64,000 nucleotides of DNA from Nitrosopumilaceae archaeon (GTDB lineage Archaea > Thermoproteota > Nitrososphaeria > Nitrososphaerales > Nitrosopumilaceae): contig CBDCCK010000002.1 of the NCBI GenBank assembly GCA_965214835.1, forward strand, positions 1,280,001 through 1,344,000, in the 5' to 3' direction. Position numbers and translations under genes: made by a program. Under the pieces are notes generated by a model. That model had not been told where the DNA came from and made no database searches. It saw only the letters and a program-made list of their open reading frames with translations. Positions 20,710 to 37,949 of the stretch are shown here, one piece after another; within the stretch, counting starts at the first letter, position 1; each line of letters starts with the position of its first letter.

Positions 20710-20993
20710 TACATCAAACCCCAGTGGTTGAAAATGTACGCTTTATGTGCCACCTGTATGGTGGTACTTACATCCATCCGCGGCTCTGCACGTATGGAAT
20801 TCTGCATGCCAAGGCCCCATGAGACGGAGGCCACAAGGAACAGCAGTACACTTCATCCATGGTAAAAACCCCCGCCGGTAACACGGTGATGTTCCTTTCG
20901 TCTTCTGATCCGTGCCTAGGCCGGGCTGTGCTTTATAGCTAACGCTAGCAACACGCACGTACCATTGTGCGGGTGGTGGGGCAGGATGTGATC

Positions 20994-22211
20994 CTACGCC
21001 GTCCCTGCCAGCTCGGTTATCCTCTTGATCTTCTTTTTGTACAGGGCGTCGCTGCGCGACGAGGACAGAGTCTTTGTCGTCAGCATGGGCCAGATTATCC
21101 TGAGCATCTTGTTTGCAACATGCGTTATCGCTATGACGTGGATGTTGCCGTTCCTTTTGCGAACCCTCTCGTAGAACTCCTTCATCCTGTCGTCGTACTG
21201 TACGGCGACGTTGGCTATCTGGATCATCAGCCAGTTGATCCTGCGATTTGCATCCTTTTTCATGTGGCCGTGGTACTCGCGGTCACCCGACTGGTACACC
21301 CTTGGACACAGGCCGGCCCAGGACACAAGATGGTTCGGTGATGGAAACCGAGTTATGTCGCGAATTGCACAGAAGGCCTTTTTGTCGCCGTAGGACACAA
21401 GATGGTTCGGTGATGGAAACCGGGTTATGTCCCCGATCTCTGCTAGCAGCAGCATTGCAGCAAACGAGTCTATCCCCGTCATGCTCAGCAGTATCCTGGC
21501 ATATTCGCTGAGTCCTGCCTGTCTTCCTATGTCCTCCCCTGCCTGGTCTATCTCCGCAAGCCATGCCTCGTACATCCTCAACACATCATCGATGTCTTCC
21601 TATGTCCTCCCCTACTTGGTCTATCTCTGCTGTGACAGATGCAATACTCCTGGTGCAGCTTGCCAGTATTCTGTTGTCGTTTGGCATGTCCAGTTTTGTC
21701 TCGGAAAGCTTTCGTATGGCCTTCCTGGAGTACATCGTGGATGCGTCTATGGCTATGTCGTACTTGTCAAGCCAAGCTGTGCAGCCCGTTTACGACTGAG
21801 GTCCTGTCCTGTACAAGCCGTATCCTGTACCTCATCAGCTCCCTGACATCCCTCATGTCTGGAGGGGACACGTAGCAGCGCGGCATGATTCCGGCCCTGA
21901 GCGTTTCGGCTATCTTCCTTGCGTCTATGGGATCAGTCTTTACACTGGTCTCCGATATTATCTTCATCTTGAGGGTGTTTGCCAGCAGTATGGGGATGTG
22001 CTGCTCCTCGAATGCCCTGAATGTCTTTAGCCACATGTTACCCGTTGACTCGCATGCGGCCTGGCACTTTTTGTACTCTTTTTTCAGCCTTGCTGCAAGC
22101 TTTGCCTCCTTGTACGTGTTGTCATACGAGCCCTCCTCTAGCACGTGTCCTTTGGAATCCACAACGCACACCGCATTTTCTCTTTCCAATGTCTATTCCT
22201 ATGCTTTTCAA
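20994..22211 (-). pseudogene. IS110-family transposase, full length but frameshifted
   Basis: IGIDIGK, CESTG, KTDPIDA, GIDSFAA..LAEIGDITRF and SWAGLCP..YQSG motifs across several frames. Confidence 0.88.
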
Positions 22212-22249
22212 TCCTTTTCTCTCAACCTCCTTCCGGATATGGTTTGATA

Positions 22250-22399
22250 GATCAGAAGCTGCAGTCATCCATCAGTGCGCGTAGCACAGGAACACAACAG
22301 CGCGGATATCCCCATTCAACTGAGTGCACAAAGCACATGAAAATGAAGGGGTTGATCCATCACCCGGACTACGGCGGGGGTGTTTTTATCATGTGTTCA
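22250..22399 (-). ncRNA. Candidate IS110 bridge RNA (5' non-coding end)
   Basis: Upstream of the IS110 transposase; alignable to 34943-35098 with compensatory stem changes. Confidence 0.6.
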
Positions 22400-22452
22400 A
22401 CTACTAAACCTGGTTGAAGAATTAATAAGGCAATTTTGCAAACCATACCACG

Positions 22453-23292
22453 TTGAAAACGACGGTGGGAATTACGGTGGTTGGAAAAGACAGGGAGGGG
22501 ATAGTCGCCGCATTTACGAACTTTGTGTTTGGGCAGCAAGGCAATGTAGAGAAGGTCAGCCAGAATGTTGTCAAGGGCCTGTTTGGAATGTACCTAGAGG
22601 CGTCATTTGGTAAAAAAATCAATGTCAAAAGTTTTGATCAGGAGCTGCAAAGACTTGCCAAGACGGAAAGAATGGAGGTCAGCACCCACCACGAATCAGA
22701 ATCGCAGAAAAACATTGCAGTCTTTGTGACCAAGGAACCCCACTGCTTGGAGTTACTGCTAAAAAACCAGTCCAAGCTAAGGGGCAAGATTGCAGTCATA
22801 GTGGGAACCGAAAAAACGCTAGAGTCGATGACCAAAAAGGCAGGGGTACCGTTCATCTGCGTAGAGGAGCGCACGCAGGCCAAGGCAGAATCAAGGCTGA
22901 TTGACATTTGTAAAAAATACGAGGTGGGCCTGATACTGCTGGCAAGATACATGAGGATTCTTACGCCAAATTTTGTGTGGCGGTATCCAAACAGGATCAT
23001 CAACATTCATCCGTCGTTGCTGCCGGCATTTCCCGGTGCAATTGCATACGAGCAGGCGTTTGAAAGGGGGACGAAAATTATCGGGGTGACATCACACTAT
23101 GTTACAGAGAACTTGGATCAGGGACCCATAATCTTCCAGGACGCGTTTGATGTTGGCTCCAGTGACACACTGGAAACAATAAAGAAAAACGGACAAAGGC
23201 TGGAGGCTACCACGCTTTTCAGAGCGGCCAAACTACACCTAGAAAACAAGTTAGAAGTGAATTGGAGAAAGGTCCACGTCAAGTTCAAGTGA
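22453..23292 (+). CDS. purU: Formyltetrahydrofolate deformylase
   Basis: ACT domain (DREGIVA), LARYMRIL, INIHPSLLPAF and DQGPII motifs. Confidence 0.93.
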   Translation: MKTTVGITVVGKDREGIVAAFTNFVFGQQGNVEKVSQNVVKGLFGMYLEASFGKKINVKSFDQELQRLAKTERMEVSTHHESESQKNIAVFVTKEPHCLELLLKNQSKLRGKIAVIVGTEKTLESMTKKAGVPFICVEERTQAKAESRLIDICKKYEVGLILLARYMRILTPNFVWRYPNRIINIHPSLLPAFPGAIAYEQAFERGTKIIGVTSHYVTENLDQGPIIFQDAFDVGSSDTLETIKKNGQRLEATTLFRAAKLHLENKLEVNWRKVHVKFK

Positions 23293-23296
23293 TTCA

Positions 23297-24022
23297 ATGA
23301 GGGGTATTTCTGCACAGTTTGATCCCGAGCTGAGGGGAGTGATAAAACAAAAAAAACTGACTGCAATCATTCCGGTGGGCTCCATTGAGCAGCACGGCCC
23401 GCACCTGCCGATCTCCACGGACTCGGAAATTGTCACCGAAATCGCAAGCAGGATAGGCTCCAAAATCAATGCGCTGGTACTTCCCACCATAACATACGGT
23501 GTATCGTTTGAGCACGCACCATTCTTTCATGCAAGCGTAAAAAAGCCAACACTGCAAAAACAGATCACAGAAATCTGCGAATCGCTAGGAGACGCCGGGA
23601 TAAGGAATATTTTTATCATAAATGGACACCATGGGAACCAAAAGGCTGTTTACCAGCTGGGCAAGAAAATATCAAGCAGAAGACTCAGGGTGTTTGAATT
23701 CTCATACTGGCATTTCATGGAGAGGTGCTTTGATCATGCAGGCTTTGTCGAAACGTCATTGATGCTGGCCATTTCAAAAAACGTCAAAATGGGGCTGGCC
23801 GAGAAGGGCCTCGATGAGAGGCAGTTCAGCGGGGCGGAGCTGGAAAGGATCGGCAGGCTGGCCTCAAAATCGTTTCCAAAGGCGACTAAAAACGGCATCT
23901 GGGGGGATCCAAGAGGCGCCACAAAAAGGGACGGACGGCAGATACTGTCAGAAATCGTCAGAAACCTGGAAAAAAAGTGTCAAACATGCCTAACAGGGCA
24001 AACGACCAAGTTACACCAATGA
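23297..24022 (+). CDS. Creatininase-family amidohydrolase (ArfB-like)
   Basis: PVGSIEQHGPHLP..TD, NGHHGN, DHAG..ETS and G.WGDP motifs. Confidence 0.9.
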   Translation: MRGISAQFDPELRGVIKQKKLTAIIPVGSIEQHGPHLPISTDSEIVTEIASRIGSKINALVLPTITYGVSFEHAPFFHASVKKPTLQKQITEICESLGDAGIRNIFIINGHHGNQKAVYQLGKKISSRRLRVFEFSYWHFMERCFDHAGFVETSLMLAISKNVKMGLAEKGLDERQFSGAELERIGRLASKSFPKATKNGIWGDPRGATKRDGRQILSEIVRNLEKKCQTCLTGQTTKLHQ

Positions 24023-24067
24023 AATTTTAATATAATCCCTGTCTATGAACGTCAATAAGTGAAATAA

Positions 24068-24301
24068 ATGTCCGTAGATATGGCAGTAAAAGTACTAGAT
24101 GAGAGTATCAGCAAGATAGTCTTGATCAAGCTCAAGGGCGGCAAGACCATCCGCGGCAGCTTACTCGGATTTGACCAGCACATGAATCTGCTACTCGACC
24201 AGTCAGAAGAGATCCCTTCTGAGGGCGACGCAAAGAGCCTGGGAACCATAGTTGTCAGAGGAGACAACGTGGTAATGATCTCCCCACCTCCATCATCATA
24301 G
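24068..24301 (+). CDS. Sm-like archaeal protein (Lsm)
   Basis: [10 protein letters not shown] and VRGDNV motifs; upstream of L37e. Confidence 0.94.
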
Positions 24302-24312
24302 GGTGGATAACC

Positions 24313-24480
24313 ATGGTCAAAGGCACAACCTCAATGGGCGGCTTTACCAAGAAAAAGGTTCACATCAGGTGCAGGCGGTGTGGCAAGAACTCGTTCCATA
24401 AAAGGCACCACAGGTGCGCCAGTTGTGGCTTTCCAGAGGCAAAAATCCGTAAATACTCTTGGATCAAGTGGTACACATAG
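24313..24480 (+). CDS. rpl37e: Ribosomal protein L37e (absent from the ORF track)
   Basis: Manual translation: [55 protein letters not shown]. Confidence 0.95.
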
Positions 24481-25350
24481 ATGCAGGAATTAGCAATCCT
24501 ACTCAGTTCTATAGCGGGAGCAGCATCAGCGGTCGCTGTAAGGAAATTTCCAAGGAATGCGACCAAGCTGCAAAGTATCGGGGCCGGCGCTCACATCAAA
24601 AATCAACAAAGTTCGCTAAAAATTGAAAAGGACATACTGAACAAGACCATTGCAAGGCTGTACGAGGACGACTCGGGTTTGTCAAAGATTCAAAGAGACA
24701 GGCTGCTACTAAAGTACCAGCACCAGCTCGGGATAATTTTGGCAAGGCTGGAAAAACTAGAGGCTGCAGGAAAGCATCCGGATCTGGGCCCCGTCGGCGA
24801 CGGTCTGATTACCCTGATGGATCAAAAGCTGTCGCAGTTAGACAGCAGGCTGTACGAGCTATCATCAAAGATTGCAGTCTCAAACCGGCAGGCAGCAGAG
24901 GAAAAAAAGGCGGCTGTCGGGGACGCCGAGAAACCAAGCCCGGTCAAAAAAATGCAAGAGGCGCTCAAGTTTGGCGAAGGGGGAAAGACCCATGCAATTG
25001 AAATTCCAAAGATGCGGAGGCCGATGGAGATTACAACACTGACGACGATACCTAAAAGCGCTCCAAAATACCCATTTGAGGAAAAGCCGCAGGCAGGACA
25101 GATCATAGAACCGCAAGAAATTCAAGCAAAGCCAAAGGCAGCCGGCCAGAAAGAAAAGATCCTTCAAGCTGGAGCAGGGATGTCAAAGCCCGAACACAGG
25201 CTGCCGGAACCAAGGGCACTGCCGGAACTAGGGCAGGAGGATGCCTCAAAAACTGCCGGCGGCGCAGAGGATGACGAGGACGACCTGGAAAAGATCAAGG
25301 GGGATATCTTGAAGACGCTGTCCAAGCTTGAGCAAGCCGAGGTGGAATAG
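24481..25350 (+). CDS. Hypothetical protein: N-terminal membrane anchor, coiled coil, low-complexity tail
   Basis: 289-aa ORF tightly packed between L37e and rpiA. Confidence 0.75.
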   Translation: MQELAILLSSIAGAASAVAVRKFPRNATKLQSIGAGAHIKNQQSSLKIEKDILNKTIARLYEDDSGLSKIQRDRLLLKYQHQLGIILARLEKLEAAGKHPDLGPVGDGLITLMDQKLSQLDSRLYELSSKIAVSNRQAAEEKKAAVGDAEKPSPVKKMQEALKFGEGGKTHAIEIPKMRRPMEITTLTTIPKSAPKYPFEEKPQAGQIIEPQEIQAKPKAAGQKEKILQAGAGMSKPEHRLPEPRALPELGQEDASKTAGGAEDDEDDLEKIKGDILKTLSKLEQAEVE

Positions 25351-26025
25351 TTGTCATATGATGATGCAGTCAATGCATTATCAAAGGACGCGCTGAGATT
25401 TGTCAGAGACGGCCAGGTTCTAGGGCTGGGAAGCGGCCGGGCCGCAACTGCCTTTGTAAGGGCGCTGGGAAGGCGCATCAAAAGTGAAAATCTGAATGTT
25501 AAGGGGATCCCGACATCGCTGCAGATCAGGATCACCGCAGAGGAAAACGGCGTTCCGCTAATCGAGGCCAATCAGGCCAGTGGCATCGACATAGTCTTTG
25601 ACGGCGCAGATCAGATCGATGCCAAAGGGTTCCTAGTCAAGGGAGGGGGCGGGGCCCTGCTGCGGGAAAATATCCTGATCAGCTCGGCAAAAAAGGTAGT
25701 CATCATGGCAGACAGGACAAAATTTGTAAAAAAGATCAGCATGGCGATTCCCGTAGAGGTCCACCCAAGTGCAAGAAGGACGGCGGCAGCGGCAATCCAG
25801 GGGATCGGCGGCAAGCCCAATCTTAGGACACTGGACAGGGGATATCCGTTCTTTACGGAAAACGGAAACATAATCTTGGATTGTAACTTTGGAGTCGTGC
25901 AAGACCCAAGGCGGCTGTCACAGCGGATCATCGGCATTGCAGGAGTCATGGAGGCAGGCATATTTGCCAGGAGGCCTGACGTAGTCTACAGGGCCAAGGC
26001 AAACGGAAAGTTCGACATCATGTAG
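25351..26025 (+). CDS. rpiA: Ribose-5-phosphate isomerase A
   Basis: GLGSG, DGADQ, KGGGGALLRE and TENGN..LD motifs. Confidence 0.94.
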   Translation: MSYDDAVNALSKDALRFVRDGQVLGLGSGRAATAFVRALGRRIKSENLNVKGIPTSLQIRITAEENGVPLIEANQASGIDIVFDGADQIDAKGFLVKGGGGALLRENILISSAKKVVIMADRTKFVKKISMAIPVEVHPSARRTAAAAIQGIGGKPNLRTLDRGYPFFTENGNIILDCNFGVVQDPRRLSQRIIGIAGVMEAGIFARRPDVVYRAKANGKFDIM

Positions 26026-27412
26026 AGGCCGGGCGCCTCACCAGCCTCCCGTGACCCTTTTTGCCGGTTACCTCAAAGTCCTCTGCCACGATTTCGCCCC
26101 TGACTAGAGTCTTTACCGGCCAGCCCCTAAGCTGCCAGCCGTCATACACGGCATAGTCAGAGAACCCCCCAAACATCGCGCCATCTACCTTTTTCTCCAG
26201 TTTCAGGTCAATGATTGCCACGTCTGCATCAAACCCCCTCTCAAGGGAGCCTTTTTGGGGATGCATTCCGAAGATACGGGAGGCGTTATAGCTGGTCAGG
26301 CCGACAAGACGCTCCAGTGAGATCCTGCCTCTGTTGACACCCTCGCTTAGCAGGATCGGCAGCACGGTGCCAATCCCGGGAAAGCCGGCAAGGGCCCCCC
26401 AAACGTCCTTTCCGCCGAGCTTTAGATTCAATCGGTTTGCAACATGATCGGTGCCAATACAGTCAACCTCGCTTGAGGATACCGCATCCCACATGGCAGA
26501 GACATCGGATTTTGAGCGTATCGGGGGCATTACCTTTGCAAGATATCCCTGCTGCTGCTCATAGGAGAGCGTAAGATAGTGGGGGCACGACTCTACGAAA
26601 ACCCTGGTTCCGTTTTGCTTTTCCTTTCTTATTTGCTCCAGTGCAGCCCGGGAGCCGACATGGACGAAATAGACGGTGCATCCAAACTCCCTGGCGTGTC
26701 TTGAGACCGTGGCAATGGCCTTTGCCTCAAACTCTGGGGAGCGACTCTCAGACCATGCAGACAGGCCGTCCCGGTTTTTTTCCCTTGCGGTCTTGATTCC
26801 GCATGCACATGACTCGTAATCCTCGGCATGGACGAGGACCGGGCATTTCAGCTCTGCTGCCCTCTTGACTGTACTGCGCACGACCTCATCGGTAACGTTG
26901 ACATGCGCGTCATAAAGTCGGCCCGAGCCCGGATCCATGTCCATGTAGACATGCCCGATATCATCGCCAAGGTTCATGTACAGCTTGAACGAGGTGATCC
27001 CGTTGTCGGTACAATGCTTCATCTCGCCGATTTGGTTTTGGTTGAAGATGGAGGCGTGGATTGTATAATCGACATAATGGGACTGTGCGCTTGCGGCAAG
27101 CTGTGCAGAAAGATCCCTTTCGTAAGAGCCCCCAAGGCGGAGCATGCGCATCATTGTTGTAATCCCGCCTATTGCCGCAGCGTGTGACTCGGTGGCAGCT
27201 GCCTTTTCTATCGGGGAATAGACACCGTAATGGACGTGGGTGTCAATCGGTCCGGGAATGGAGACTAGGCCCTTGGCGTTGATTTTTTTGTCACATGCAG
27301 GCACGTCACTAGTCAGGGCGGCCACCCTACCGCCATCGATTACAATGTTCCTGTCGATCACGCCGGAGGGCAACACGACGTGCGAATCCACGATTACAGA
27401 GTCAGCCGTCAT
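26018..27412 (-). CDS. Cyclic amidohydrolase (dihydroorotase/hydantoinase/allantoinase family)
   Basis: PG.IDTHVH, GGITT, SFKLYM, HAE, PPIR and GTDH motifs. Confidence 0.88.
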   Translation of the reverse strand: MTADSVIVDSHVVLPSGVIDRNIVIDGGRVAALTSDVPACDKKINAKGLVSIPGPIDTHVHYGVYSPIEKAAATESHAAAIGGITTMMRMLRLGGSYERDLSAQLAASAQSHYVDYTIHASIFNQNQIGEMKHCTDNGITSFKLYMNLGDDIGHVYMDMDPGSGRLYDAHVNVTDEVVRSTVKRAAELKCPVLVHAEDYESCACGIKTAREKNRDGLSAWSESRSPEFEAKAIATVSRHAREFGCTVYFVHVGSRAALEQIRKEKQNGTRVFVESCPHYLTLSYEQQQGYLAKVMPPIRSKSDVSAMWDAVSSSEVDCIGTDHVANRLNLKLGGKDVWGALAGFPGIGTVLPILLSEGVNRGRISLERLVGLTSYNASRIFGMHPQKGSLERGFDADVAIIDLKLEKKVDGAMFGGFSDYAVYDGWQLRGWPVKTLVRGEIVAEDFEVTGKKGHGRLVRRPAST

Positions 27413-27487
27413 CTTGACTCTTGTGGGATTTTATGGGTATTATGCGTTGAGTAAATGAATAAAGCACGGGGCGTGGGCAGACATTCG

Positions 27488-27559
27488 GGGCCGGTGGTTT
27501 AGGAGTATAACGCCGCGTTCGCAACGCGGAAGTCGGGGGTGCGAATCCCTCCCGGTCCA
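27488..27559 (+). tRNA. tRNA-Ala(CGC)
   Basis: GGGCCGG...CCGGTCCA; anticodon arm CCGCG-TTCGCAA-CGCGG. Confidence 0.92.
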
Positions 27560-27593
27560 TCAAAATATTGTACCTTTTATGCGTTCCAGGAAC

Positions 27594-27707
27594 ATGGAGA
27601 TCAAGATGAAGCTTACGATGGAGGAATTCGAGAGGGTGGGGCAGGCCGCCCCGCTTGACCTTTTCAACCAGGGGATCAAGGCGGAGATGACGCGCGAAAA
27701 ATACTGA
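27594..27707 (+). pseudogene. Possible N-terminal remnant of a tRNA-adjacent tyrosine integrase
   Basis: MEIKMKLTMEEFERVGQAAPLDLFNQGIKAEMTREKY* immediately after the tRNA. Resembles the starts of thaumarchaeal integrases (from recollection). Confidence 0.4.
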
Positions 27708-28095
27708 TCTGGACCCCGTATTTTCGAACCACTTTTTGGGCGTTTTTGCGTAGTTCTGGCATCATCTGCCTGCCTCCCTTTGGTGCCGTACGATGAACTC
27801 CATCGGAGTGAGATATCCAAGCGAGGAGTGTATTCTATCATGGTTGTAGTCCCTAAAGGCCTCCTTTATGACGTCTGAGGCGTCCTAGGAGCCAAATTCA
27901 TGAGGCCACAGGTACTCCCTCTTGATGCTTCCGTGAAACGACTCTATGTGGCCGTTTTGTTCTGGCGTCCTGTATGCTATGAGCTCGTGCCTTATTCCCA
28001 GCCGTTTCAGGGACTCCCTGAACATGCGCGACGTATACTGAGAACCGTTGTCTGTCCGCAGGGTCAGCATGCTGCAGTCCGGATCTGCTGCCGTA

Positions 28096-29514
28096 GTCAA
28101 TTCATAAAAAAACGAACAATTTTGACAACTGCTTTTGATCCAAACATTAAGATCAGGCAAACCATCGCACATGCATGGGAAAACAGGCAGAATTTGTGGC
28201 ATCTAGGGACAAATTCCTGGGCAAGCAAAGCACTCACGCCTTTGCAAGGCGTACTAGACCCGACAGTATGGAACACGACAGTTGTTGCTGCTGCAGTTAA
28301 TTCGTGCATGTGGAGTTTGACATACTGCCACACAAGACCCGACAGTATGGAACACGACAGTTGTTGCTGCTGCAGTAGTCAGCCCATCAAATATCGGAAC
28401 ATCTTTACCGGTAGGATCTCTCCGCTGGTAAACAGATTCCGCACGGACTGCTCCATCTCATCAAGCGTATCAAACACCTTGGCAGACAGCCTCCGCTTTA
28501 TCTCCCTCCACTGTATCTCTACAGGATTGAGCTCCGGCGTGGACGGCGGCAGGTACTCCAGTATTATCTCGCCCTTGTACTTTTCCAGCGTCTCCCTTAC
28601 GCCGACAGACTTGTGGTATGACGCATTATCCAGGAATATCAACACCTTTCCGTACTTTTCGTGCACATTTTCCAAAAAGTCGCAAAAGCTGTCGGTGTTG
28701 GTCTTGTCATAGAACATATAGTAGAATATGTTAACTGCCAGCACGCCGAACATGTACCGGCGCTGCCGTGACAGCGTCAAGGGCGCCGTGACGCTCATGC
28801 CGCGCCTGATCCACCCGTGTTTGGGGCTGTTTGAGGTCTTTTGTATGGATGACTCGTCTTCTGCCAGTACCGTATACCCTTGCGCCTCCTTTTCCCGTAT
28901 CAGCTCCTAGGATGCCTCCTTGAACTCGTTCTGCTTTTGTTTTGAGACGGCCTTTGGGTTCTTGGGCCTCGGCTTCCTCCATGAGAACCCAAGCTCGCGT
29001 GCCAGCAGCCGCGTGCCGCTCTTGCTGTATTCTATGCCGAACTTCTTTTTGATGTGCCGTCTCATCAGGCCCGAGTCCCACAGGCTGCTCTCAAAACCGC
29101 ACTCCTCGGATCCTGACTTGAGATCCGCCGCAAGCTGTTTCAGCTGCGACTCACTCAGCTTGTGCTTGCGTCCCCTGCCTGGCCGCTCGTGCCTTGCACG
29201 TATTCCCTCGTCCTGTGCGCGGATGAGCCACTTGGATATGGTGGAATGTGCCCGGTCGAGGTTCTTTGCTATCTGTTCCACACCGAGGTCGTCCTTGCGC
29301 TGCATGTATGCAAGCAGCCTGTCGCGCTTTCTCTTGTCTGTCTCCTTTTTGTATGCCTTGTGCAGGTAGGAGCGTGACGTATTTGGCAGGAATTTGCTCC
29401 CTGATGCTACGAATTCCTTTCTCTGTCTGTCCATGCATATGCGCATTCCTTGCCTGATCTTAATGTTTGGATCAAAAATAGTTGTCAAAATTGTTCTTTT
29501 TTTTATATATTGAC
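28096..29514 (-). mobile_element. IS630-family element with long TIRs; transposase 29434-28379 has one in-frame TAG
   Basis: TA flanks at 28094-28095 and 29515-29516; GFSWRKPRP, DES, DNASYH and PELNPVE.W motifs. Confidence 0.9.
28256..28376. repeat. Two identical 42-bp direct repeats separated by 37 bp
   Basis: AGACCCGACAGTATGGAACACGACAGTTGTTGCTGCTGCAGT at 28256-28297 and 28335-28376. Confidence 0.92.
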
Positions 29515-30265
29515 TACGATACCGCATCGAGTACGGCCTGAACCGCATTCTCCTTTTGCGCCGTGGTGTCAAAGGAGTATGCAAACCACCTGCGCGAAAA
29601 GGCATCAAGTACGTTGAAGCAGTAGCACCAGCCGTCCCCGTCGCAATCCACATATGTAATGTCTGCCTGCCACAGCCGGTTGGGGGCGTCGGGCCTTGTC
29701 GGCCTGCGCGAGGCCCGCATTATGTCGTTTTTGGTCTTTTTGGGCTCGATCCAGCCCATCTGGCGGTAGATTCGCCGTACCTTTTTGCGGTTTATGCGCA
29801 CGCCAGTCTCGCGCAATATCTGGTTTGCCATCCTCCGGGTTCCGTACGTCGGCCTTTTCTTGCCTATGGCACGTATGATTGAGACCGTCCCAGAGTCGGC
29901 TTTTCTGGTCCGCCTATCGGCGTACTTCCTGGCGTAATACCAGGTGCCCTTAGACGCCGCAGTATTTCAGGGCCGTGTTGAGGCTCATCGTCTGGTGGCA
30001 GATCTGTACGGCATTCATCCTTTGCTCAGCCCCATTGTTTTTTTTAAAGCGTCACAGGCCACTGCATACTCGCCTATGATGCGTTTGAGATCCTGGTTCT
30101 CCTTTTGCAGTGCAGTCACTGCCTTGTCATTCCGGCCCAGGATGGATGCCTTGCCGCCCTCGACGAACCTGTCCATCCACCTGCCAAACGTGGTGGGCGC
30201 GATGTTGTGCTTGCGGCACAGCTCGGCAGTGCTGATGTTGGTCTTGATGGACTCCATCACTATGT

Positions 30266-31681
30266 CAGTACTTCCTAGATGTACTTTTGCAGACCCGACA
30301 CGGCACCTCCGCTACTTTCCGCGATCGTTTACAAACGAGTCGGCCGCATCGACAATGCACGCGACAAACAGCATCATGGTAAACCCCTTCCCTCCTGCAA
30401 ATCCGTCCCACTTGGATTCCACGTCTATGAACACGGCAGTCCTCCACAGGTTGTACAGTATGACAGACATATAGAACAGCAGCAGCCTGACGACCGGGGA
30501 ATTGCTGCACGTCTTGCCCATTATCCCCTTGATCACCCTGAACCCGGTCTCGATTCCCCACCGACTGCGGTACTCCTCCGGTATCTGCTCAATGACTGCC
30601 TCTGCACTTTTAGCAGACATGTTGGTGGCAAAGACCAGATACCTGTCGGCTATGGTCTCTTCTGCCTTGTCCTTCTTTGCTGCTGCCGTGCCGTCCTTTT
30701 CTACCTCGTCCTTTTCCACAATGACTAGCCTGAATGTGGCGCTCTTGCCGTCCTTGTTGGTCATTGTATATTTTGATACCGCACCGCGTTCTCCGCGGTC
30801 ATGCTCCTCTATTGCCGCCACTATCCTCCTGTTCTTGACGGCAGGCATGATGTAGCTGCCCGTGCTTGTTTCTGCAGCCCTCATGCAGTCCACGTTAAAG
30901 AACCCGCGGTCATACAGGAACGTCTTGATCCTCATCCCTGATCTGGACGCCTTGCGGATCATTTTAGGCACGAAATCGGCCAGTTTTGCCTCTTTTGGAA
31001 GCTGCAGCGAGGAAAGCACGAGGTCAGACCCGTCATCTGATCCTATTCCGTGCATGGTAATGTGCGAGAGAAACGTCGACGTGCCGTTCTTGGGCTTTGA
31101 CTTTCTGGCGATATCCTCCAGGCCCTTGCCATAGTATTCCACGTCGGTAACGTCCACTGCCACGACGTCCGTGTTGTGCAGCATGCCTGACCTGCGGGCG
31201 CACCTTACCGTATGCTGCAGCATGGAGCTGCACCACTTTTGCGCATCATCCAGGCTGACGCCCCGGATCGCCTTTAGGATCCAGTCCGGACTAGGCGTAC
31301 GGCAACTATACGCGCCGCCCTTGGAGGCAGCCCCGTCGTCATGCTGCTGCCTGCTGCATTTTGAGGCCCGCCTGCGAAGGTGCGTCACGGCAGATTCTGC
31401 AAACATCCTCCTCTCAGACATGAAATATAGAACGCGCAGTGCGTCGATGTGGTCATACACTGCGTTGCGACTCTTTGAGACGGCCAGCCCGAGCTTGGGA
31501 AACCGCCGTCGCAATGTTTTAAACTGTCTCGATGTTATGTCAAACTGGTGTGCAAACACGTCGTTTTGTGTTACTGACATGATGATGGTTGGCACACCGC
31601 CTGATCTATAGTATGATGGTCAAAAAATCTCGGCAAATTGCGTAATTATCGTGCCTGCAAAAGTACATCGAGGAACTACTG
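30266..31681 (-). mobile_element. ISH3-family element, apparently intact
   Basis: 27-bp TIR CAGTACTTCCTAGATGTACTTTTGCAG / CAGTAGTTCCTCGATGTACTTTTGCAG; 4-bp TSD ATGT. Confidence 0.92.
30312..31595 (-). CDS. ISH3-family DDE transposase
   Basis: AVDVT, YDRGFF and YRSRWGIETGFR motifs; uninterrupted 427 aa. Confidence 0.9.
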   Translation of the reverse strand: MPTIIMSVTQNDVFAHQFDITSRQFKTLRRRFPKLGLAVSKSRNAVYDHIDALRVLYFMSERRMFAESAVTHLRRRASKCSRQQHDDGAASKGGAYSCRTPSPDWILKAIRGVSLDDAQKWCSSMLQHTVRCARRSGMLHNTDVVAVDVTDVEYYGKGLEDIARKSKPKNGTSTFLSHITMHGIGSDDGSDLVLSSLQLPKEAKLADFVPKMIRKASRSGMRIKTFLYDRGFFNVDCMRAAETSTGSYIMPAVKNRRIVAAIEEHDRGERGAVSKYTMTNKDGKSATFRLVIVEKDEVEKDGTAAAKKDKAEETIADRYLVFATNMSAKSAEAVIEQIPEEYRSRWGIETGFRVIKGIMGKTCSNSPVVRLLLFYMSVILYNLWRTAVFIDVESKWDGFAGGKGFTMMLFVACIVDAADSFVNDRGK

Positions 31682-31931
31682 ATGTCTGTCTTTTCGGCCA
31701 ATGTGAACTTTTGTTTTTTCATGCCCCGTATGCCCTCCTGTCATATACAAATTCTACGCATTTGGGTGGTTCGAATTTTATGGGGTCCTCACTACGCCTT
31801 TCCGAGCTGTGCAAAAAGCCCGACAGACTCAGGATGCATAAAGTGGGAGGAGGTTCTGCTGGAGTAATGATGCGTGATCGGCAATACGCCAGAGATGATC
31901 TGATGGGGGAGCCTTGCGCAGCTTGCCGTGG

Positions 31932-32159
31932 TTAAAGGAACAACCTCTTGGAGCAGATTTTGTAAATCAAAACTGTCAGTAATGCCATGCTGACTGCAAG
32001 CAGAGCCAGCGCGGCTGGATTCTGTAAAATGTATGACGGGCCAAAGGACAAGGAGTCTAGATGGATTTGATGCGCCAGAGACAGCGAGCCTGCTCCGGCC
32101 AATACCAGCCCGCAAAAACCAAGTATCAGCCGGGGATAAAAAAAAGAACGTGTCAGCAT
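31932..32159 (-). CDS. Small two-TM membrane protein
   Basis: ATG 3 bp after the upstream stop; two hydrophobic segments. Confidence 0.55.
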   Translation of the reverse strand: MLTRSFFYPRLILGFCGLVLAGAGSLSLAHQIHLDSLSFGPSYILQNPAALALLAVSMALLTVLIYKICSKRLFL

Positions 32160-32162
32160 GTG

Positions 32163-32939
32163 TTACCACACACCGTATTCGAAATCCATCTCGACACTAT
32201 ACCAGATTGTGCCCCCGTGAGGATTGTCAAACGCATGGTTGCCTCTTCTGTCTCCATGGCCGTTCAAAAACACGGTTTCGGTCACGTGTCTAACCTCGCC
32301 CTGTTGGAACTCATGAGGGATAAAGCACCAATGCATGTAAAACGGGCTTGCTTCCCACGTCACATCAACTGTGTCTGGTCTGATAGGTGCCTGAAATAAA
32401 GCATGGTTAAGCGTCGCACATCCGGAATATATATCGTGTAGTGTCAGGGTGGGCGGCGTGCCATGCTCTCTGTCATACAGATCAATTCTTGCACTGCTAG
32501 GTGTAGAGGATCCAGAACCTGCACCTGCCGCTTCACTGGGAATGTCGGTGAAAACCTGGCGTATGCCAAGACCGTTGTTTACCAGTTTGTAGGTCGAGTT
32601 ATCAATTGCAGTTATCCTGAATTTTTCAGATGATATTTTTTCGCCGTCGATCCGGGTTGTGGGCTTTACTGCATATTTATCATCGGTAATTTCACGCACT
32701 ATTGTTGTGACAGAGTATGTTTGGTTTGCAATAGGACGTTCGGCTACCGTTTTTCCCGGATCAGCGGTTAGCTCCTTCATGTATTGAATCATGACTGGAT
32801 CATAGATGGGTTCTGTTTGACTTGGTTCATGAACGGAATCGTCTTGTCTTGGTGCATGTGCGAATGCGCTATTCATCCCCACAGGAGCCAACAAGGTTAG
32901 TGCCAAGAGAGATGTTGTGTATTTTGTTTTGCTGTTCAT
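32163..32939 (-). CDS. Secreted protein of unknown function
   Basis: Signal peptide MNSKTKYTTSLLALTLLAPVGMNSAFA; Gly/Ser linker; distinct C-terminal domain with two Cys. Confidence 0.75.
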   Translation of the reverse strand: MNSKTKYTTSLLALTLLAPVGMNSAFAHAPRQDDSVHEPSQTEPIYDPVMIQYMKELTADPGKTVAERPIANQTYSVTTIVREITDDKYAVKPTTRIDGEKISSEKFRITAIDNSTYKLVNNGLGIRQVFTDIPSEAAGAGSGSSTPSSARIDLYDREHGTPPTLTLHDIYSGCATLNHALFQAPIRPDTVDVTWEASPFYMHWCFIPHEFQQGEVRHVTETVFLNGHGDRRGNHAFDNPHGGTIWYSVEMDFEYGVW

Positions 32940-32949
32940 GCTCTCACCA

Positions 32950-33321
32950 GTCACTATACGCCTTTGTTATATAGCAATTGATATCAGCTTACGGTATGCC
33001 TTTTGCGCACGAAACGAGCAAGGATCCGGGATCTGCCCACGCAGGACAAAGCAAAGAAGCCTTACTTCCCAGAACGTGTTACGAAACGGGATGGAGCTGG
33101 TACGCAAGATTGCAGCCGTGGTCTTTCTCCAGGTCACCCTGTGGAAGATGATCAGGAGACATGCAAAATAGCGCAAAACAGATCCGCCGGCGGAGACCGC
33201 TGTTTCACGGGCGATCCTTCCGACACCCCTTGACGAGTACGGGATCCTACTGCTCGTTTCGTGCGCAAAAGGCATACCGCAAACCGATATCAATTGCTAT
33301 ATAACAAAGGCGCATGGTGAC
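32950..33321. promoter_or_regulatory. Inverted-duplicated promoter arms (32950-33027 and 33242-33321)
   Basis: About 80-bp near-identical inverted repeat; each arm holds a TATATAA box about 30 bp upstream of a divergent gene. Confidence 0.8.
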
Positions 33322-33331
33322 CTGTAAGAAC

Positions 33332-34305
33332 ATGGGAGAGAAAACAAAACGCATAATATCGCTTCTTGCACTGGCACTTCTGATTCCGATCGGATTGGCA
33401 AGCGCGCAGGAGGTATCGGGCGGAGAACAGGAGCCGGCAGGCCCTGTCGGAACCGTGGATGAGAACAGTCCTGAACAGGACAATGTAATATTGAGGCAGA
33501 TAGAACCGCAAGAGTTTGTGGGCCAGCACACGACCGACGTAAGACCCATCTGCAGCTACCTGTATGTCAAGTACACGTATTCCAGCGACGGGTTGGAGCA
33601 CATGGGGATAGACCACGTCTTTCGTGAGGAAGTCCTTCCGATCCCGGACACGGTATCCAACGAGGATGTTTCGCGATTCGGCGACGATCCAGTTACAAGC
33701 CAAAACTATACGCTGAACCTGATCCATGGAGACGATATTTCCGCGTTTGACAGGATCCTAGTTGACGGCGCGGAAGTATCCACGCATATGTTCCAGCAGT
33801 GGGAGATCGTAAAGACCGAAAGGGATGACACACAGCCAACCAACATGAGCTATCGGCAGGTATCGCACACCGAGGACTGGGCATCAACATAGATGGAACT
33901 TGGACAGTGCAGGACGAACACTATATCGACTACCTAGGAGGAATTTGCAACCAGTACCACATCAGGGCATGGGAGATCAGCAACAGTTCTATGATAGGGT
34001 CTGCGCACAAGGAAGTCACGAATATCAAGTTTCCATGGGACAGCATCGACATTCAGCACATCTACAGCTCCGGGCCCAACTATACGGAATATGACATCGA
34101 TACTATTTTAGGCTTGTATCATTCCCTGAGTGGATTTGATAGTGCAGAAGATGAGGCCGCAGGTGAGTTCTCCGGCAGCTGCTGGAGCACGGCACAGGAC
34201 TCGCATCATCTTGGAAACCAGTACCCTAGGAATACGATAAAGAACGACACTGTGGAGAACACCGCCCATAACGACGGATACGCAACAGTCATAAGCTGTT
34301 CATGA
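33332..34305 (+). pseudogene. Secreted protein paralog, frameshifted near 33860-33890
   Basis: Signal peptide MGEKTKRIISLLALALLIPIGLASA; ORF 33314-33892 continues in another frame (GINIDGTWTVQDEHY...) to 34305. Confidence 0.65.
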
Positions 34306-34590
34306 CCCATTTTTTTTGAATTGCTGAGCAAGCGGGGCTTTCTGACATGCAGTCTGGTGGCTACACTACCATTCATCACGACCTTTCTCATAATCGCTCC
34401 GCTTAAACCGTGGGTAGCGCTTTTTCTCTTGCCGTATACGCTGATAGTCTCGTTCTTTGGCATTTCTGTTGCGGCGGTATCGCTTCTGAACAAATCGGAT
34501 CGTTTCACGCTGACATGCTCTTTTGGGATATCGGTTGCATGCTCAGGTTCAGTATATGCCTACGAGGTAACCTCGATTCATTATTTTTAG
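34302..34590 (+). CDS. Small three-TM membrane protein (T8 tract frameshift after ATG 34302, or TTG start at 34321)
   Basis: ATGA overlap with the upstream stop; three hydrophobic segments. Confidence 0.55.
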
Positions 34591-34619
34591 TCAGCTTTTG
34601 TCTTTTTTCATACTCAGGT

Positions 34620-34916
34620 TCAGTATATGCCTACTCGGTACTTTCGTCCGATGCACTCTATTAGGTTTGCTAGTGCACGATTCATGCCGCCTGCAGACTC
34701 GAATGCCTCGCAGGTTCTGGGCCACATACTGCCCGTGGACTCGCAGACGGCCTGGCAGTTCTTTCCGCCGTAATTGAGCTCTGCCTTCCTGGCAAACAGG
34801 CATGCCTCCTTGGAGGTGTTATCATATGCCGTCTCTTCCAGGATCCTCTTTTTGCCGTCCATAATGCACGCTACGCATCTTCTCTTTCCGATGCCTGTTC
34901 CTATGCTGTACTGCAT
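34620..34916 (-). pseudogene. IS110-family transposase N-terminal remnant
   Basis: MQYSIGTGIGKRRCVACIMD...YDNT.KEA...CESTG; homologous to 21767-22211. Confidence 0.82.
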
Positions 34917-34942
34917 CTTTTCTCGCTTTCCTCTTTTTGGTG

Positions 34943-35098
34943 GATCAGATGCTGCACATGTCCATCGGCACGCCGTGGTGCATGAACACTGCAGCTCGGA
35001 ATTACCGCATTCAGAAGTCAGCGCGCAGGGCGCATGGGAAGACAGCGGTTGATCCACACCACCACCGCTACGGGCCCGGGCGTTTTAACCCGTGTTCA
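34943..35098 (-). ncRNA. Candidate IS110 bridge RNA, second variant
   Basis: Colinear with 22250-22399; covarying hairpins. Confidence 0.6.
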
Positions 35099-35274
35099 GA
35101 AGTATCACGTCAAATTATCCCAGGCTTGAAACAATTCAAACGGGGCTGGCTGCAGATCCGCATGTCGTCTCCTGCACCATCACGAGTCTGTTGCTTCTGG
35201 GAAGGCTGATCCGGCCACTTTGATTTATATGTGATTCGGAAACCGCTTTTTTACTAGAGAGGCTATGATGTGAC

Positions 35275-37669: not shown

Positions 37670-37949
37670 ATGGTTGGGTTTTTTTGCTATCCTGCTGGCA
37701 GTGCCTCTTAGCGACCACGCCCTTGCAACCGACATGTTTGGCACAATGGGACTTGTGAACATAGAAGATGTCAGAGGGGACGGCTATTTACAGTAGTTGA
37801 AAATGTAACCCCCTTTTTAAGTGTCTGATTGTTTTGAACAAATTGATATGATTTTTTGTAATAGGTTAGCCCCTGCCTAGAGTTAAAGTCACACCCACCG
37901 TCTTTTCAGGCATGAAAATCACAACTGCAGGCAGATTAGTGCAGGATTG

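What the first reader, a model, noticed from the sequence alone, without database searches (positions are those of the whole stretch)
22250..35098. Two homologous IS110 leaders with compensatory stems: archaeal bridge-RNA pair
Seen: 22250-22399 and 34943-35098 align end to end (GATCAGAnGCTGCA...TCCATC...GAACAC..CAGC.CGGA...CATTCA...CATG...GGTTGATCCA...CTACGG...GTGTTCA). Two stems covary: GTGC/GCAC versus GCAC/GTGC, and GTGC/GCAC versus GCGC/GCGC, while short intervening segments differ. Both lie directly 5' of related IS110 transposases. Established: IS110 bridge RNAs have a 5' hairpin plus two stem-loops whose internal loops specify target and donor DNA. Inference: naturally reprogrammed variants of an RNA-guided recombinase family in Nitrosopumilaceae. 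Both local transposases are broken, so any RNA made here could only act in trans.
Basis: partly seen in the sequence, partly recalled or inferred. Interest (0 to 1): 0.75.

Follow-up and report, generated by a model that had tools for sequence, protein, structure and literature searches.

The report
Decayed archaeal bridge-RNA insertion sequences
Two worn-out copies of a jumping gene in an ammonia-oxidising archaeon still carry the folded guide RNA that tells its enzyme where to insert, and the many relatives show that this RNA is naturally retargeted, mostly to the ends of other jumping genes.

Summary
Both stretches are the left ends of IS110-family insertion sequences on the minus strand. 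A covariance model built here finds them at window 22241-22361 and 34934-35058 (120.5 and 111.8 bits).

The RNA has five helices. Across 81 distinct sequences, 96.1% of cells pair and 22 of 26 pairs show compensatory changes.

It has two internal loops with four guide segments. These track the left target flank, the right target flank, the right-end tip and the left-end tip of each element.

Unoccupied target sites in the same genome match the guides and share a TG core. All three targets are terminal repeats of other mobile elements.

This is a bridge/seek RNA system, shown in silico only. Its geometry is IS1111-like: long subterminal repeats, 7/3-bp tips, and the top-strand guide first. Yet the RNA lies upstream of the transposase.

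Both window copies are relics. I call it a new member of a known kind.

Two side leads:
- A conserved outward TATA-like box in the right end, followed by a segment complementary to the RNA's tail.
- A possible programmed +1 frameshift.

The parts
22398..22399 (-). Copy A: left-end core dinucleotide TG (first bases of the element)
   Evidence: Homology among 11 copies starts here. Assembly contigs branch at the same point of a sister copy. Coordinates.
22376..22392 (-). Copy A: left subterminal inverted repeat (ATGATAAAAACACCCCC), 5 nt inside the core
   Evidence: Its reverse complement lies at the right end, window 20854-20870.
22241..22361 (-). Copy A: bridge-RNA core with helices P1-P5, a target loop and a donor loop
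   Evidence: cmsearch 120.5 bits, E 8e-33; structure counts.
22337..22347 (-). Copy A: target loop, 5' guide (pairs with the top strand of core plus right target flank; expects TG-AAAATG)
   Evidence: The same guide in the intact sister copy matches its right junction and 23 empty sites.
22314..22323 (-). Copy A: target loop, 3' guide (same sense as left flank plus TG plus AA). It carries a 2-nt deletion compared with sister copies.
   Evidence: CACT--CAGTTGAA against CACTCGTAGTTGAA. Coordinates.
22288..22296 (-). Copy A: donor loop, 5' guide (reverse complement of the left-end tip AACACA)
22263..22274 (-). Copy A: donor loop, 3' guide (same sense as the right-end tip ATGGA plus TG)
21000..22211 (-). 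Copy A: broken IS110-family transposase. It has a 2-nt deletion near codon 13, the family-wide extra base at codon 148, a later frame change and internal duplications.
   Evidence: Four tblastn pieces in different frames; six-frame reading; ORF list.
20854..20870 (-). Copy A: right subterminal repeat plus GGA plus right core TG (20854-20855)
20902..20939 (-). Copy A right end: TATA-like box GCTATAAAGCAC (20928-20939) and, downstream of it, the segment ACGGATCAGAAG (20902-20913), which is complementary to the RNA tail at 22246-22262
35097..35098 (-). Copy B: left-end core TG
   Evidence: Homology to the flanking repeat stops exactly here. Coordinates.
34934..35058 (-). Copy B: bridge-RNA core. 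Guides: 35034-35044 (expects TG-GGAAGAC), 35009-35020 (ACTTC-TG-AA), 34982-34990 (tip AACAC), 34956-34967 (right-end guide, which departs from sister copies).
   Evidence: cmsearch 111.8 bits.
34695..34916 (-). Copy B: transposase stump. Only residues 3-71 are recognisable, and the first catalytic Asp motif reads GTGIGK instead of GIDIGK.
35099..35165 (-). Left half of copy B's target: the end of a dispersed repeat of about 60 nt (terminal repeat ...GGTACTTCTG|GGAAGACTG of another mobile element)
   Evidence: 24 blast matches in the genome.
37791..37805 (+). Unoccupied target of the copy-A subfamily (CAGTAGT-TG-AAAATG), the terminal repeat of a ~1.35-kb element

Best explanation
Both stretches are the left ends of two related IS110-family insertion sequences on the minus strand. 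Each left end encodes, in the sense of the transposase, a bridge (seek) RNA of about 125-160 nt.

Structure: a closing helix P1 encloses two stem-loop modules, and each module has an internal loop.
- First (target) loop. The 5' side is complementary to the top strand of core TG plus about 5-6 nt of the right target flank. The 3' side has the sense of about 5 nt of the left target flank plus TG.
- Second (donor) loop. It does the same for the element's own tips: the 5' side for the left-end tip, the 3' side for the right-end tip plus TG.

Inferred by analogy with IS621 and the IS1111-type seekRNAs: the DEDD/Ser transposase binds this RNA. It then recombines the circle junction (right end-TG-left end) with a target holding TG between the two guided flanks.

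Shown from sequence:
- Subfamilies are naturally reprogrammed.
- In this genome each one aims at the terminal inverted repeat of another mobile element.

The two window copies are relics.
- Copy A has a transposase broken several times and a 2-nt deletion in its left-target guide.
- Copy B keeps an intact target loop. It has lost all but about 70 codons of its gene, its right end and the fit of its right-end guide. No intact transposase of its subfamily was found in the genome.
For: Protein:
- The one intact sister copy (P0001, 359 aa) hits Pfam PF01548 and PF02371.
- It hits NCBIfam NF033542 'IS110 family RNA-guided transposase' at 234 bits against a cut-off of 140.
- D7, E56, D95, D98 and S261 are invariant in 11 relatives.
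- Its model (pLDDT 89.6) matches IS621 and ISCro4 synaptic-complex chains at E about 1e-13 to 1e-14, TM 0.62-0.75.

RNA:
- RNAalifold predicts 25 pairs, 16 of them compensatory.
- On 20 sequences, 96.3% of cells pair against 82.9% shuffled, and 17 of 26 pairs are compensatory.
- On 81 distinct sequences, 96.1% pair against 79.4%, and 22 of 26 pairs are compensatory. No shuffle of 500 reaches either value.
- The model gives 24 matches in the own genome.
- 75 of 80 related loci have a match, and all 76 matches lie on the gene's strand.

Guides, cognate against non-cognate:
- Left flank positions -1 to -5: 63-84% identical against 22-31%, and background from -6 on. At least 4 of 5 match in 56 of 77 against 15 of 4,864.
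- Right flank positions +1 to +6: 43-83% against 21-31%. At least 5 of 6 match in 15 of 30 against 0 of 778.
- The right-end triplet equals the guide triplet in 29 of 30.
- Left-end tip: at least 5 of 6 match in 25 of 51 against 52 of 1,338.

Empty sites:
- Subfamily B: 16 exact and 4 one-mismatch of 23 repeat copies.
- Subfamily A2: 23 exact sites.
- Subfamily A1: 51 sites within 2 mismatches.
- TG occurs once in empty sites and at both ends of filled ones.

Element ends are confirmed by contig branch points.
Against: Nothing here shows that the RNA is made, binds the protein or is needed. All support is comparative.

Many copies fit their flanks imperfectly:
- 21 of 77 have fewer than 4 of 5 left-flank matches.
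- 15 of 30 have fewer than 5 of 6 right-flank matches.
- Some of this comes from my anchoring rule, some from decayed copies.

Other points:
- The anchoring dropped rows. 13 of 97 were dropped on the left. On the right, the right end was located for 52 of 89 rows and 32 passed the filter.
- The guide order within each loop is the reverse of IS621, so IS621 structural details cannot simply be carried over.
- The larger alignment was fitted to the model and leans towards it.
- Kin are not independent, so the shuffle counts overstate.
- No Rfam family matches. That is neutral, not support.
Confidence: 0.85

Rival explanations
1. The leader is a cis-acting DNA or 5'-UTR element (transposase binding sites, translational control of the transposase) and does not guide target choice. 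The flank matches would be side-effects of site-specific insertion recognised by the protein.
For: The leader ends 20-30 nt before a conserved GGAGGTGA and the start codon, so some role in translation is possible. Subterminal inverted repeats could be protein sites.
Against: Protein recognition does not explain why four short segments inside the leader change together with the flanks and tips in subfamilies whose proteins are near-identical. Examples are A1 against A2, or the two G014 elements L034 and L051, which share the same 5' guide but have different 3' guides and left flanks. Helices covary as RNA, with G.U 121 against A.C 30.
Confidence: 0.05
2. The RNAs of the two window copies still act in trans with an intact paralogous transposase, such as the one at G000:C2:513383-514459.
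For: Both leaders keep all five helices and score 120.5 and 111.8 bits. Copy B's target guides are identical to those of sister copies and match 20 of 23 repeat copies. Bridge RNA supplied in trans works for IS621 (Durrant 2024, passage seen).
Against: Copy A's left-target guide has a 2-nt deletion. Copy B's right-end guide reads CGATGGACATGT, where a sister copy (C2:2665847) reads TGATAGATGTGT and the right end is ATAGA-TG. The two long subfamily-B genes elsewhere in the genome are frameshifted. The only intact relative is about 50-55% identical to subfamily B. No promoter for integrated copies was identified.
Confidence: 0.12
3. The functional RNA is read from the + strand, in the orientation in which the reader wrote the motifs.
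For: Helices are symmetric in DNA, so most pairs also form on the other strand.
Against: G.U cells number 121 against 30 A.C cells in the transposase sense. All 76 matches in related loci are on the gene's strand just upstream of it. On the other strand the guide/strand relations fit neither known type. That is my own reasoning, using the definitions seen.
Confidence: 0.03

Closest known systems
IS621 bridge RNA and recombinase (IS110 group; Durrant et al. 2024 PMC11208160; Hiraizumi et al. 2024 PMC11208158; passages seen)
   Same: - DEDD plus Ser recombinase of the same fold.
- RNA encoded in the left end upstream of the gene.
- Two pseudo-symmetric stem-loops whose internal loops each hold one guide for the bottom strand left of the core and one for the top strand right of it.
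- A 2-nt core shared by target and donor.
- The bottom-strand target guide runs on past the core into AA, the first two bases of the left-end tip. This recalls handshake guides, but the AA is constant, so no covariation supports it.
   Different: - The order of the two guides in each loop is reversed (top-strand guide on the 5' side).
- The core is TG, not CT.
- A helix P1 closes both modules, instead of a separate 5' stem-loop.
- Subterminal repeats are 12 or more bp, not 2-3 bp.
- The right end is also long (about 190 nt).
- The host is an archaeon, so no sigma-70 junction promoter can apply.
seekRNAs of IS1111-family elements ISEc11, ISPa11 and ISKpn4 (Siddiquee et al. 2024 PMC11187229; passages seen)
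   Same: [quoted passage not shown]
- Subterminal inverted repeats are of 11-13 bp class.
- Terminal extensions are 7 bp on the left (TGAACAC) and 3 bp on the right (GGA).
- Relatives are naturally reprogrammed.
   Different: The RNA lies upstream of the transposase, not downstream. Both non-coding ends are long. That paper notes a few such exceptions: ISMtsp17 with an upstream NCR, and ISHvo10 and ISAcp5 with long NCRs at both ends. In the passages I saw it does not locate their RNA.
[quoted passage not shown]
   Same: Insertion at a fixed position inside the terminal inverted repeat of another transposable element. All three subfamilies in this genome do this.
   Different: The hosts and target elements differ. 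Here one genome holds three differently programmed subfamilies, each aimed at a different element's repeat.
Haloarchaeal IS110-family elements, such as ISHvo10 of Haloferax volcanii pHV4
   Same: These are the best matches among plasmid records, at 30-35% identity over 91-93% of the protein. A Haloarcula copy has a weak model match just upstream of its gene, 13.8 bits, E 0.005.
   Different: ISHvo10 itself gave no credible match to the model (best 9.9 bits, on the wrong side and strand). Homology of the RNA beyond the window's own phylum is not shown.

Membership tests
IS110-family RNA-guided insertion sequences (bridge/seek RNA systems) | Transposase with a RuvC-like DEDD domain plus a Tnp (Transposase_20) domain | tested here: met
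   PF01548 at E 8e-30 and PF02371 at E 2.5e-24. NF033542 at 234 bits against a cut-off of 140. Fold match to IS621 (8wt6) and ISCro4 (9t56) at E about 1e-13 to 1e-14. Tested on the intact sister copy P0001, not on the broken window genes.
IS110-family RNA-guided insertion sequences (bridge/seek RNA systems) | Catalytic D-E-D-D and Ser residues | tested here: met
   D7, E56, D95, D98 and S261 are invariant in 11 relatives. They align with the GIDxSK, E, KTDxxDA and xSG motifs of ISCro4. The IS621 residues D11, E60, D102, D105 and S241 were read. In window copy B the first motif reads GTGIGK, so that copy fails this feature.
IS110-family RNA-guided insertion sequences (bridge/seek RNA systems) | Structured non-coding RNA encoded in a long non-coding end, on the transposase strand | tested here: met
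   Covariation. 75 of 80 related loci have it, and all 76 matches are on the gene's strand. Expression was not tested.
IS110-family RNA-guided insertion sequences (bridge/seek RNA systems) | Internal loops whose segments are complementary to both strands of the target and of the donor junction | tested here: met
   Cognate against non-cognate tests for the left flank, right flank, right-end tip and left-end tip. Empty sites.
IS110-family RNA-guided insertion sequences (bridge/seek RNA systems) | Core dinucleotide present once in the target and at both element ends | tested here: met
   TG. Empty site ACTTC-TG-GGAAGAC, left junction ACTTC-TG-AACAC, right junction ATAGA-TG-GGAAGAC.
IS110-family RNA-guided insertion sequences (bridge/seek RNA systems) | Circular intermediate whose junction drives expression | not testable with these tools
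   Only assembled contigs of DNA-like runs were on hand. A conserved outward TATA-like box in the right end is a lead.
IS110-family RNA-guided insertion sequences (bridge/seek RNA systems) | The RNA binds the transposase and is required for transposition | not testable with these tools
   Needs biochemistry or genetics.
IS1111 subgroup | Subterminal inverted repeats of about 11-13 bp, with 7-bp left and 3-bp right terminal extensions (definition read) | tested here: met
   Left end: TGAACAC + ATGATAAAAAC... Right end...GTTTTACCAT + GGA (+TG).
IS1111 subgroup | Top-strand complement 5' of the bottom-strand match in the RNA | tested here: met
IS1111 subgroup | Guide RNA in the non-coding region downstream of the transposase | tested here: not met
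   The RNA is upstream in all 76 matches. The downstream end is long but gave no model match (one search lists none there).
IS110 subgroup (IS621-like) | Left guide on the 5' side and right guide on the 3' side of each loop | tested here: not met
   The order is reversed in both loops.
IS110 subgroup (IS621-like) | Long left end, short right end, and only 2-3-bp subterminal repeats | tested here: not met
   The left end is about 190 nt, but the right end is also about 190 nt, and the repeats are 12 or more bp.
Any Rfam 15 family | Match at or near the gathering score | tested here: not met
   Only tRNAs in the window at gathering threshold. Best hit on the leader is 11.6 bits at E 7.7, to an unrelated lncRNA model.

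The most novel reading that the evidence does not exclude
The working RNA is completed only when the element circularises.

Evidence that does not exclude this reading:
- A conserved outward-facing TATA-like box sits in the right end: AGCGTTAGCTATAAA, or GCTTAAGA in distant relatives.
- About 24-26 nt downstream of it lies a segment (..GGATCAGAAG) that covaries with, and is complementary to, the 3' tail of the left-end RNA.

The proposal: a transcript started there would run over the right tip, the TG core and the left tip. The two subterminal repeats would fold into a hairpin that presents the donor core in its loop. The RNA's own 5' end would pair with its tail, replacing helix P1 and closing the whole bridge RNA. 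The same transcript would carry on into the transposase gene. Guide RNA and enzyme would then be made together, and only from the excised circle. This would be an archaeal counterpart of the bacterial junction promoter, in which part of the RNA itself is split across the two ends.
Probability: 0.3. Interest if true: 0.7.

Novelty: new member of a known kind. Interest (0 to 1): 0.5.

Why it matters
- Reach. Bridge/seek RNA-guided recombination has been worked out in bacterial elements. This gives a sequence-level case for it in ammonia-oxidising archaea (Nitrosopumilaceae and some Nitrososphaerales MAGs). The case rests on 57 distinct left-target guides and on matching empty sites in one genome.
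- Classification. IS1111-type ends and guide order can go with an upstream RNA. This helps to sort the 'exceptions' noted in print and bears on how the RNA moved between element ends.
- Ecology of mobile elements. The three subfamilies in this genome each insert into the terminal repeat of another mobile element. That is a safe-haven habit, which also disables the host element's end.
- Tools. A compact scaffold of about 123 nt with a TG core, native to archaea, could be a starting point for genetic tools in organisms that have few.
- Origins. It adds material to the proposed link between IS110 recombinases and archaeal Nop5 (Vaysset et al. 2024, passages seen).

Tried and rejected
Rfam: nothing but tRNAs at gathering threshold. 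A chance-level lncRNA hit on the leader at E 7.7.

Expression: no RNA holder listed among 18 runs, so nothing can be said on transcription.

Circle junction: four runs were laid. All are assembled contigs and none showed a joint. They could not have shown a rare circle. They served only to confirm the element ends through loose ends at L004:1503 and 2950-2960.

Sigma-70 promoter and terminator scan: at shuffle level, and not relevant to an archaeon.

First guide test without an anchor: a 9-mer slid over the flank gave a diluted signal (mean 6.8 against 5.2 matches), because only 5 flank positions are guided. I replaced it with the anchored tests.

Column-wise pairing of the right-end segment with the tail from a MAFFT alignment returned empty tails, because the reference row was badly chosen. 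I replaced it with a window search using a non-cognate control.

An alternative helix (GGAT with ATCC, extending P2): reading alignment A3 by eye, it does not hold in several relatives, so I dropped it in favour of P1.

My early idea that the A1 copies spread as passengers of a MITE: the short duplications flank the MITE itself, and the DNA beyond the MITE differs among the 8 copies. Separate insertions into resident MITE ends explain the pattern more simply.

Haloarchaeal relatives: ISHvo10 gave no credible model match. A Haloarcula copy gave only 13.8 bits.

Supplementary files of the papers are closed. Durrant's supplementary tables of predicted bridge RNAs and Siddiquee's supplementary trees may already list archaeal or upstream-RNA IS1111-type elements. 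I could not check.

Searches behind 'not in print':
- 'bridge RNA' + IS110 + archaea: 22 papers, of which I read the 15 listed titles and abstract starts.
- IS110 + Nitrosopumil: 3 papers.
- 'IS110 family' + 'programmed frameshift': 0 papers.

Papers, and what I saw of each:
- PMC11208160, PMC11208158, PMC11187229, bioRxiv 10.1101/2024.06.21.599552 and PMC13343696: passages only.
- PMC13626964: abstract and outline.

Full report
WHAT IS AT THE COORDINATES

Both stretches sit immediately upstream of IS110-family transposase remains that run on the minus strand. They align end to end.

Homology among 11 full-length sister copies of copy A starts at TG|AACACATG. Homology of copy B's flank to a dispersed repeat stops at the same TG.

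The window is G000:C2:1280001-1344000, in a genome of 3.22 Mb and 52.6% G+C. The genome holds about 11 full-length and about 15 partial copies of copy A's family. Copy B's family has three long and two partial copies.

A REAL, CONSERVED RNA FOLD

Twenty leaders were aligned with MAFFT: the two of the window, sister copies, and relatives from other genomes of the same family.
- RNAalifold predicts 25 pairs, 16 with compensatory changes.
- I wrote the fold as five helices. P1 closes the whole. P2 and P3 form the first stem-loop. P4 and P5 form the second.
- On this alignment 96.3% of cells pair, against 82.9% in shuffles (0 of 500 reach it) and 29-51% with slid partners. 17 of 26 pairs change on both sides.

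A covariance model (R1) gave these results:
- 24 matches in the own genome.
- Matches in 6 of 151 genomes sampled across the phylum: 4 of 19 in the same family plus the own genome, and 1 of 3 in one other family.
- 97 matches over 100 sources.
- 75 of 80 loci fetched by transposase similarity have a match. The five without lack the upstream DNA or the N-terminal part of the gene.
- All 76 matches in those loci are on the gene's strand.

On the 81 distinct matched sequences, 96.1% of cells pair against 79.4%, and 22 of 26 pairs are compensatory. That alignment is fitted to the model and leans towards it.

G.U cells outnumber A.C cells 121 to 30, so the RNA is in the transposase sense. No Rfam family matches.

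THE VARIABLE SEGMENTS ARE GUIDES

Sister subfamilies gave the first clue.
- A1 copies have the left junction TAGCCTGT-TG-AACAC, and the 3' side of the first loop reads ACCTGT-TG-AA.
- A2 copies have CAGTAGT-TG-AACAC and CGTAGT-TG-AA.
- The 5' side of the same loop is the reverse complement of TG plus the right flank: CATAAC in A1, AAAATG in A2.
- Copy B's family reads GACTTC-TG-AA and, as a complement, A-TG-GGAAGAC.

Across all matched elements I compared each guide with its own flank and with the flanks of elements that have different guides.
- Left flank. Positions -1 to -5 are 84, 77, 84, 78 and 63% identical (n=81), against 22-31%. Positions -6 and -7 are at background, 24%. At least 4 of 5 match in 56 of 77 against 15 of 4,864. 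13 of 97 rows were dropped because my rule for locating the left end failed or the flank was too short.
- Right flank. The right end was located through the reverse complement of the left subterminal repeat in 52 of 89 rows. 32 of these passed a filter (repeat ending in AT, then 3 nt, then TG or CG), giving 30 distinct cases. Positions +1 to +6 are 83, 77, 77, 57, 67 and 43% identical, against 21-31%. At least 5 of 6 match in 15 of 30 against 0 of 778.
- Donor loop. The three bases before the right core equal the guide triplet in 29 of 30 (AGG, AGA, GAG, GGA, GGG). The left tip matches the complement of the 5' guide at 5 or more of 6 positions in 25 of 51 against 52 of 1,338. Several misses there are mis-anchored rows.

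EMPTY SITES AND THE CORE

The same genome holds unoccupied targets for all three subfamilies.
- Subfamily B. Copy B's left flank is the end of a repeat of about 60 nt. Of its 23 other copies, 16 continue ...ACTTCTG|GGAAGAC exactly and 4 with one mismatch.
- Subfamily A2. There are 23 exact CAGTAGTTGAAAATG sites. Many lie in inverted pairs about 1.35 kb apart, so they are the terminal repeats of another insertion sequence. One lies in the window at 37791.
- Subfamily A1. There are 51 sites within two mismatches of TAGCCTGTTGCATAAC. These are ends of MITE-like repeats.

TG occurs once in empty sites and at both ends of occupied ones, so TG is the core. Contigs of public runs branch at the two cores of a sister copy, L004:1503 and 2950.

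THE PROTEIN

Only one family-A copy has an open 359-codon gene (P0001).
- It hits PF01548 and PF02371, and NF033542 'IS110 family RNA-guided transposase'.
- By sequence it hits ISCro4 and IS621 in the PDB.
- Its model (pLDDT 89.6) matches those synaptic-complex chains at E about 1e-13 to 1e-14.
- D7, E56, D95, D98 and S261 are invariant among 11 relatives.
- Homologues at E<=1e-40 occur in 21 of 121 sampled genomes of the family, in 9 of 27 genera.
- Named records are Nitrosopumilus, Cenarchaeum, Nitrosopumilaceae and Nitrososphaerales MAGs, plus two short contigs binned as bacteria.
- The nearest plasmid-borne relatives are haloarchaeal, at 30-35% identity.

HOW IT COMPARES WITH WHAT IS KNOWN

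In IS621 the left guide, which pairs with the bottom strand, is on the 5' side of each loop. The right guide, which pairs with the top strand, is on the 3' side. Here the order is reversed in both loops.

Siddiquee et al. report exactly this reversal for IS1111-type seekRNAs. They define that family by subterminal repeats of 11-13 bp with 7-bp left and 3-bp right extensions. The present elements have TGAACAC + repeat on the left and repeat + GGA on the right.

Yet their RNA is upstream of the gene, which is the IS110-type position, and both ends are about 190 nt long. That paper mentions a few such exceptions: ISMtsp17, ISHvo10 and ISAcp5.

So this is a member of the IS110 superfamily of RNA-guided elements, with IS1111-type ends and an upstream RNA. 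I found no paper on such RNAs in ammonia-oxidising archaea. The supplements could not be read.

THE TWO WINDOW COPIES ARE RELICS

- Copy A. The gene is in four differently framed pieces, with internal duplications. Its left-target guide has lost 2 nt. It sits in a decayed copy of its cognate target: TAGTAGT-TG ... TG-AAGTGTAC, against CAGTAGT-TG-AAAATGTAC.
- Copy B. It keeps the left end and about 70 codons, with the first catalytic motif changed to GTGIGK. Its right-end guide departs from a sister copy. Both long sister genes are frameshifted.

Action in trans is therefore possible in principle but not likely.

LEADS BEYOND THE FINDING

(a) The right end.
- It holds a conserved block, AGCG-TA-GCT(A/T)TAAA, or GCTTAAGA in distant relatives.
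- About 24-26 nt downstream comes a segment, TAGGCACGGATCAGAAG in copy A's family, about 55 nt from the right core.
- That segment is complementary to the RNA's 3' tail and changes with it. At least 9 of 10 pairs form in 17 of 23 cognate cases against 38 of 380 non-cognate (first seen).
- When right end and left end are joined in silico, the minimum-energy fold pairs this segment with the tail in 6 of 7 elements. The two subterminal repeats form a hairpin with the core in its loop.
- This fits an outward archaeal promoter that makes the RNA and the mRNA from the circle. A 5'-UTR/3'-UTR pairing in the mRNA would fit as well.

(b) A shared frameshift.
- Ten of the 11 aligned family-A copies share one extra base, giving ...AGC TTG GCT TGA C... 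where the intact copy reads AGC CTG CTT GAC.
- Two lineages that both carry it differ at dS 0.16-0.24 with dN/dS 0.27 upstream and 0.26 downstream of the site.
- That suggests the downstream part is still translated, perhaps by a +1 shift at GCU-UGA-C. Gene conversion among copies is an alternative.

VERDICT

The finding is a new member of a known kind, with unusual geometry. The local copies are dead or nearly so.

Noticed in passing
window 21767-21781 (-); the same site in 10 of 11 aligned family-A copies of the genome: A shared single-base insertion splits the transposase into two frames at AGC TTG GCT TGA C. Skipping one base after GCT restores ...HSLA-DKYD... at the length of the intact copy. 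Between two lineages that both carry it, dN/dS is 0.27 before and 0.26 after the site (dS 0.16-0.24). This suggests a programmed +1 frameshift, although gene conversion could mimic it. A search for 'IS110 family' + 'programmed frameshift' found 0 papers.
   Followed up: partly
window 20902-20939 (-) and the right ends of related loci (e.g. L104, L121, L102, L035): A conserved TATA-like box lies in the right end, about 24-26 nt upstream of a segment that is complementary to, and covaries with, the 3' tail of the left-end RNA (at least 9 of 10 pairs in 17 of 23 cognate against 38 of 380 non-cognate).
   Followed up: partly
window 37791-37813 (+); 23 sites in the genome: CAGTAGTTGAAAATGTA(C/A)CCC is the terminal inverted repeat of a ~1.35-kb element present in many copies (inverted pairs about 1.35 kb apart). 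It is the target of the A2 subfamily. The element itself was not examined.
   Followed up: no
window 35099-35165; 24 blast matches in the genome: A dispersed repeat of about 60 nt ends in ...GGTACTTCTGGGAAGACTG, and two copies sit tail to tail with its reverse complement. It is probably the terminal repeat of a MITE or insertion sequence. It is the target of subfamily B.
   Followed up: partly
L126 and L132 (search for related loci): Two short contigs (6.1 and 1.8 kb) binned as Kaiserbacteria and Gemmatimonadales carry this archaeal-type transposase at 45-49% identity. L132 also has the RNA (55.7 bits). Mis-binning seems more likely than transfer.
   Followed up: no
L098 and L099 (same places as L030, genome G006): These copies lack the first 7 nt of the left end after the core (TG|GAAAAAC instead of TG|AACACATGGAAAAAC), while their left-target guide still matches the flank (TTCATT-TG).
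   Followed up: no
G000: C1:7830-8811; C2:311789-312853, 1472973-1473953, 1548872-1547892, 1650773-1651936, 2027720-2028523, 2873136-2873939: Further IS110-family transposase paralogues at 27-31% identity to P0001. None coincides with a match to the RNA model R1, so they presumably carry other guide RNAs.
   Followed up: no
L173:549-674 (+) (Haloarcula sp. plasmid): A weak match of the RNA model (13.8 bits, E 0.005) lies directly upstream of a haloarchaeal IS110-family transposase, with P1, P3 and P5 and the UUGA and AUAGGUG motifs in place. This hints that the RNA family reaches haloarchaea.
   Followed up: partly
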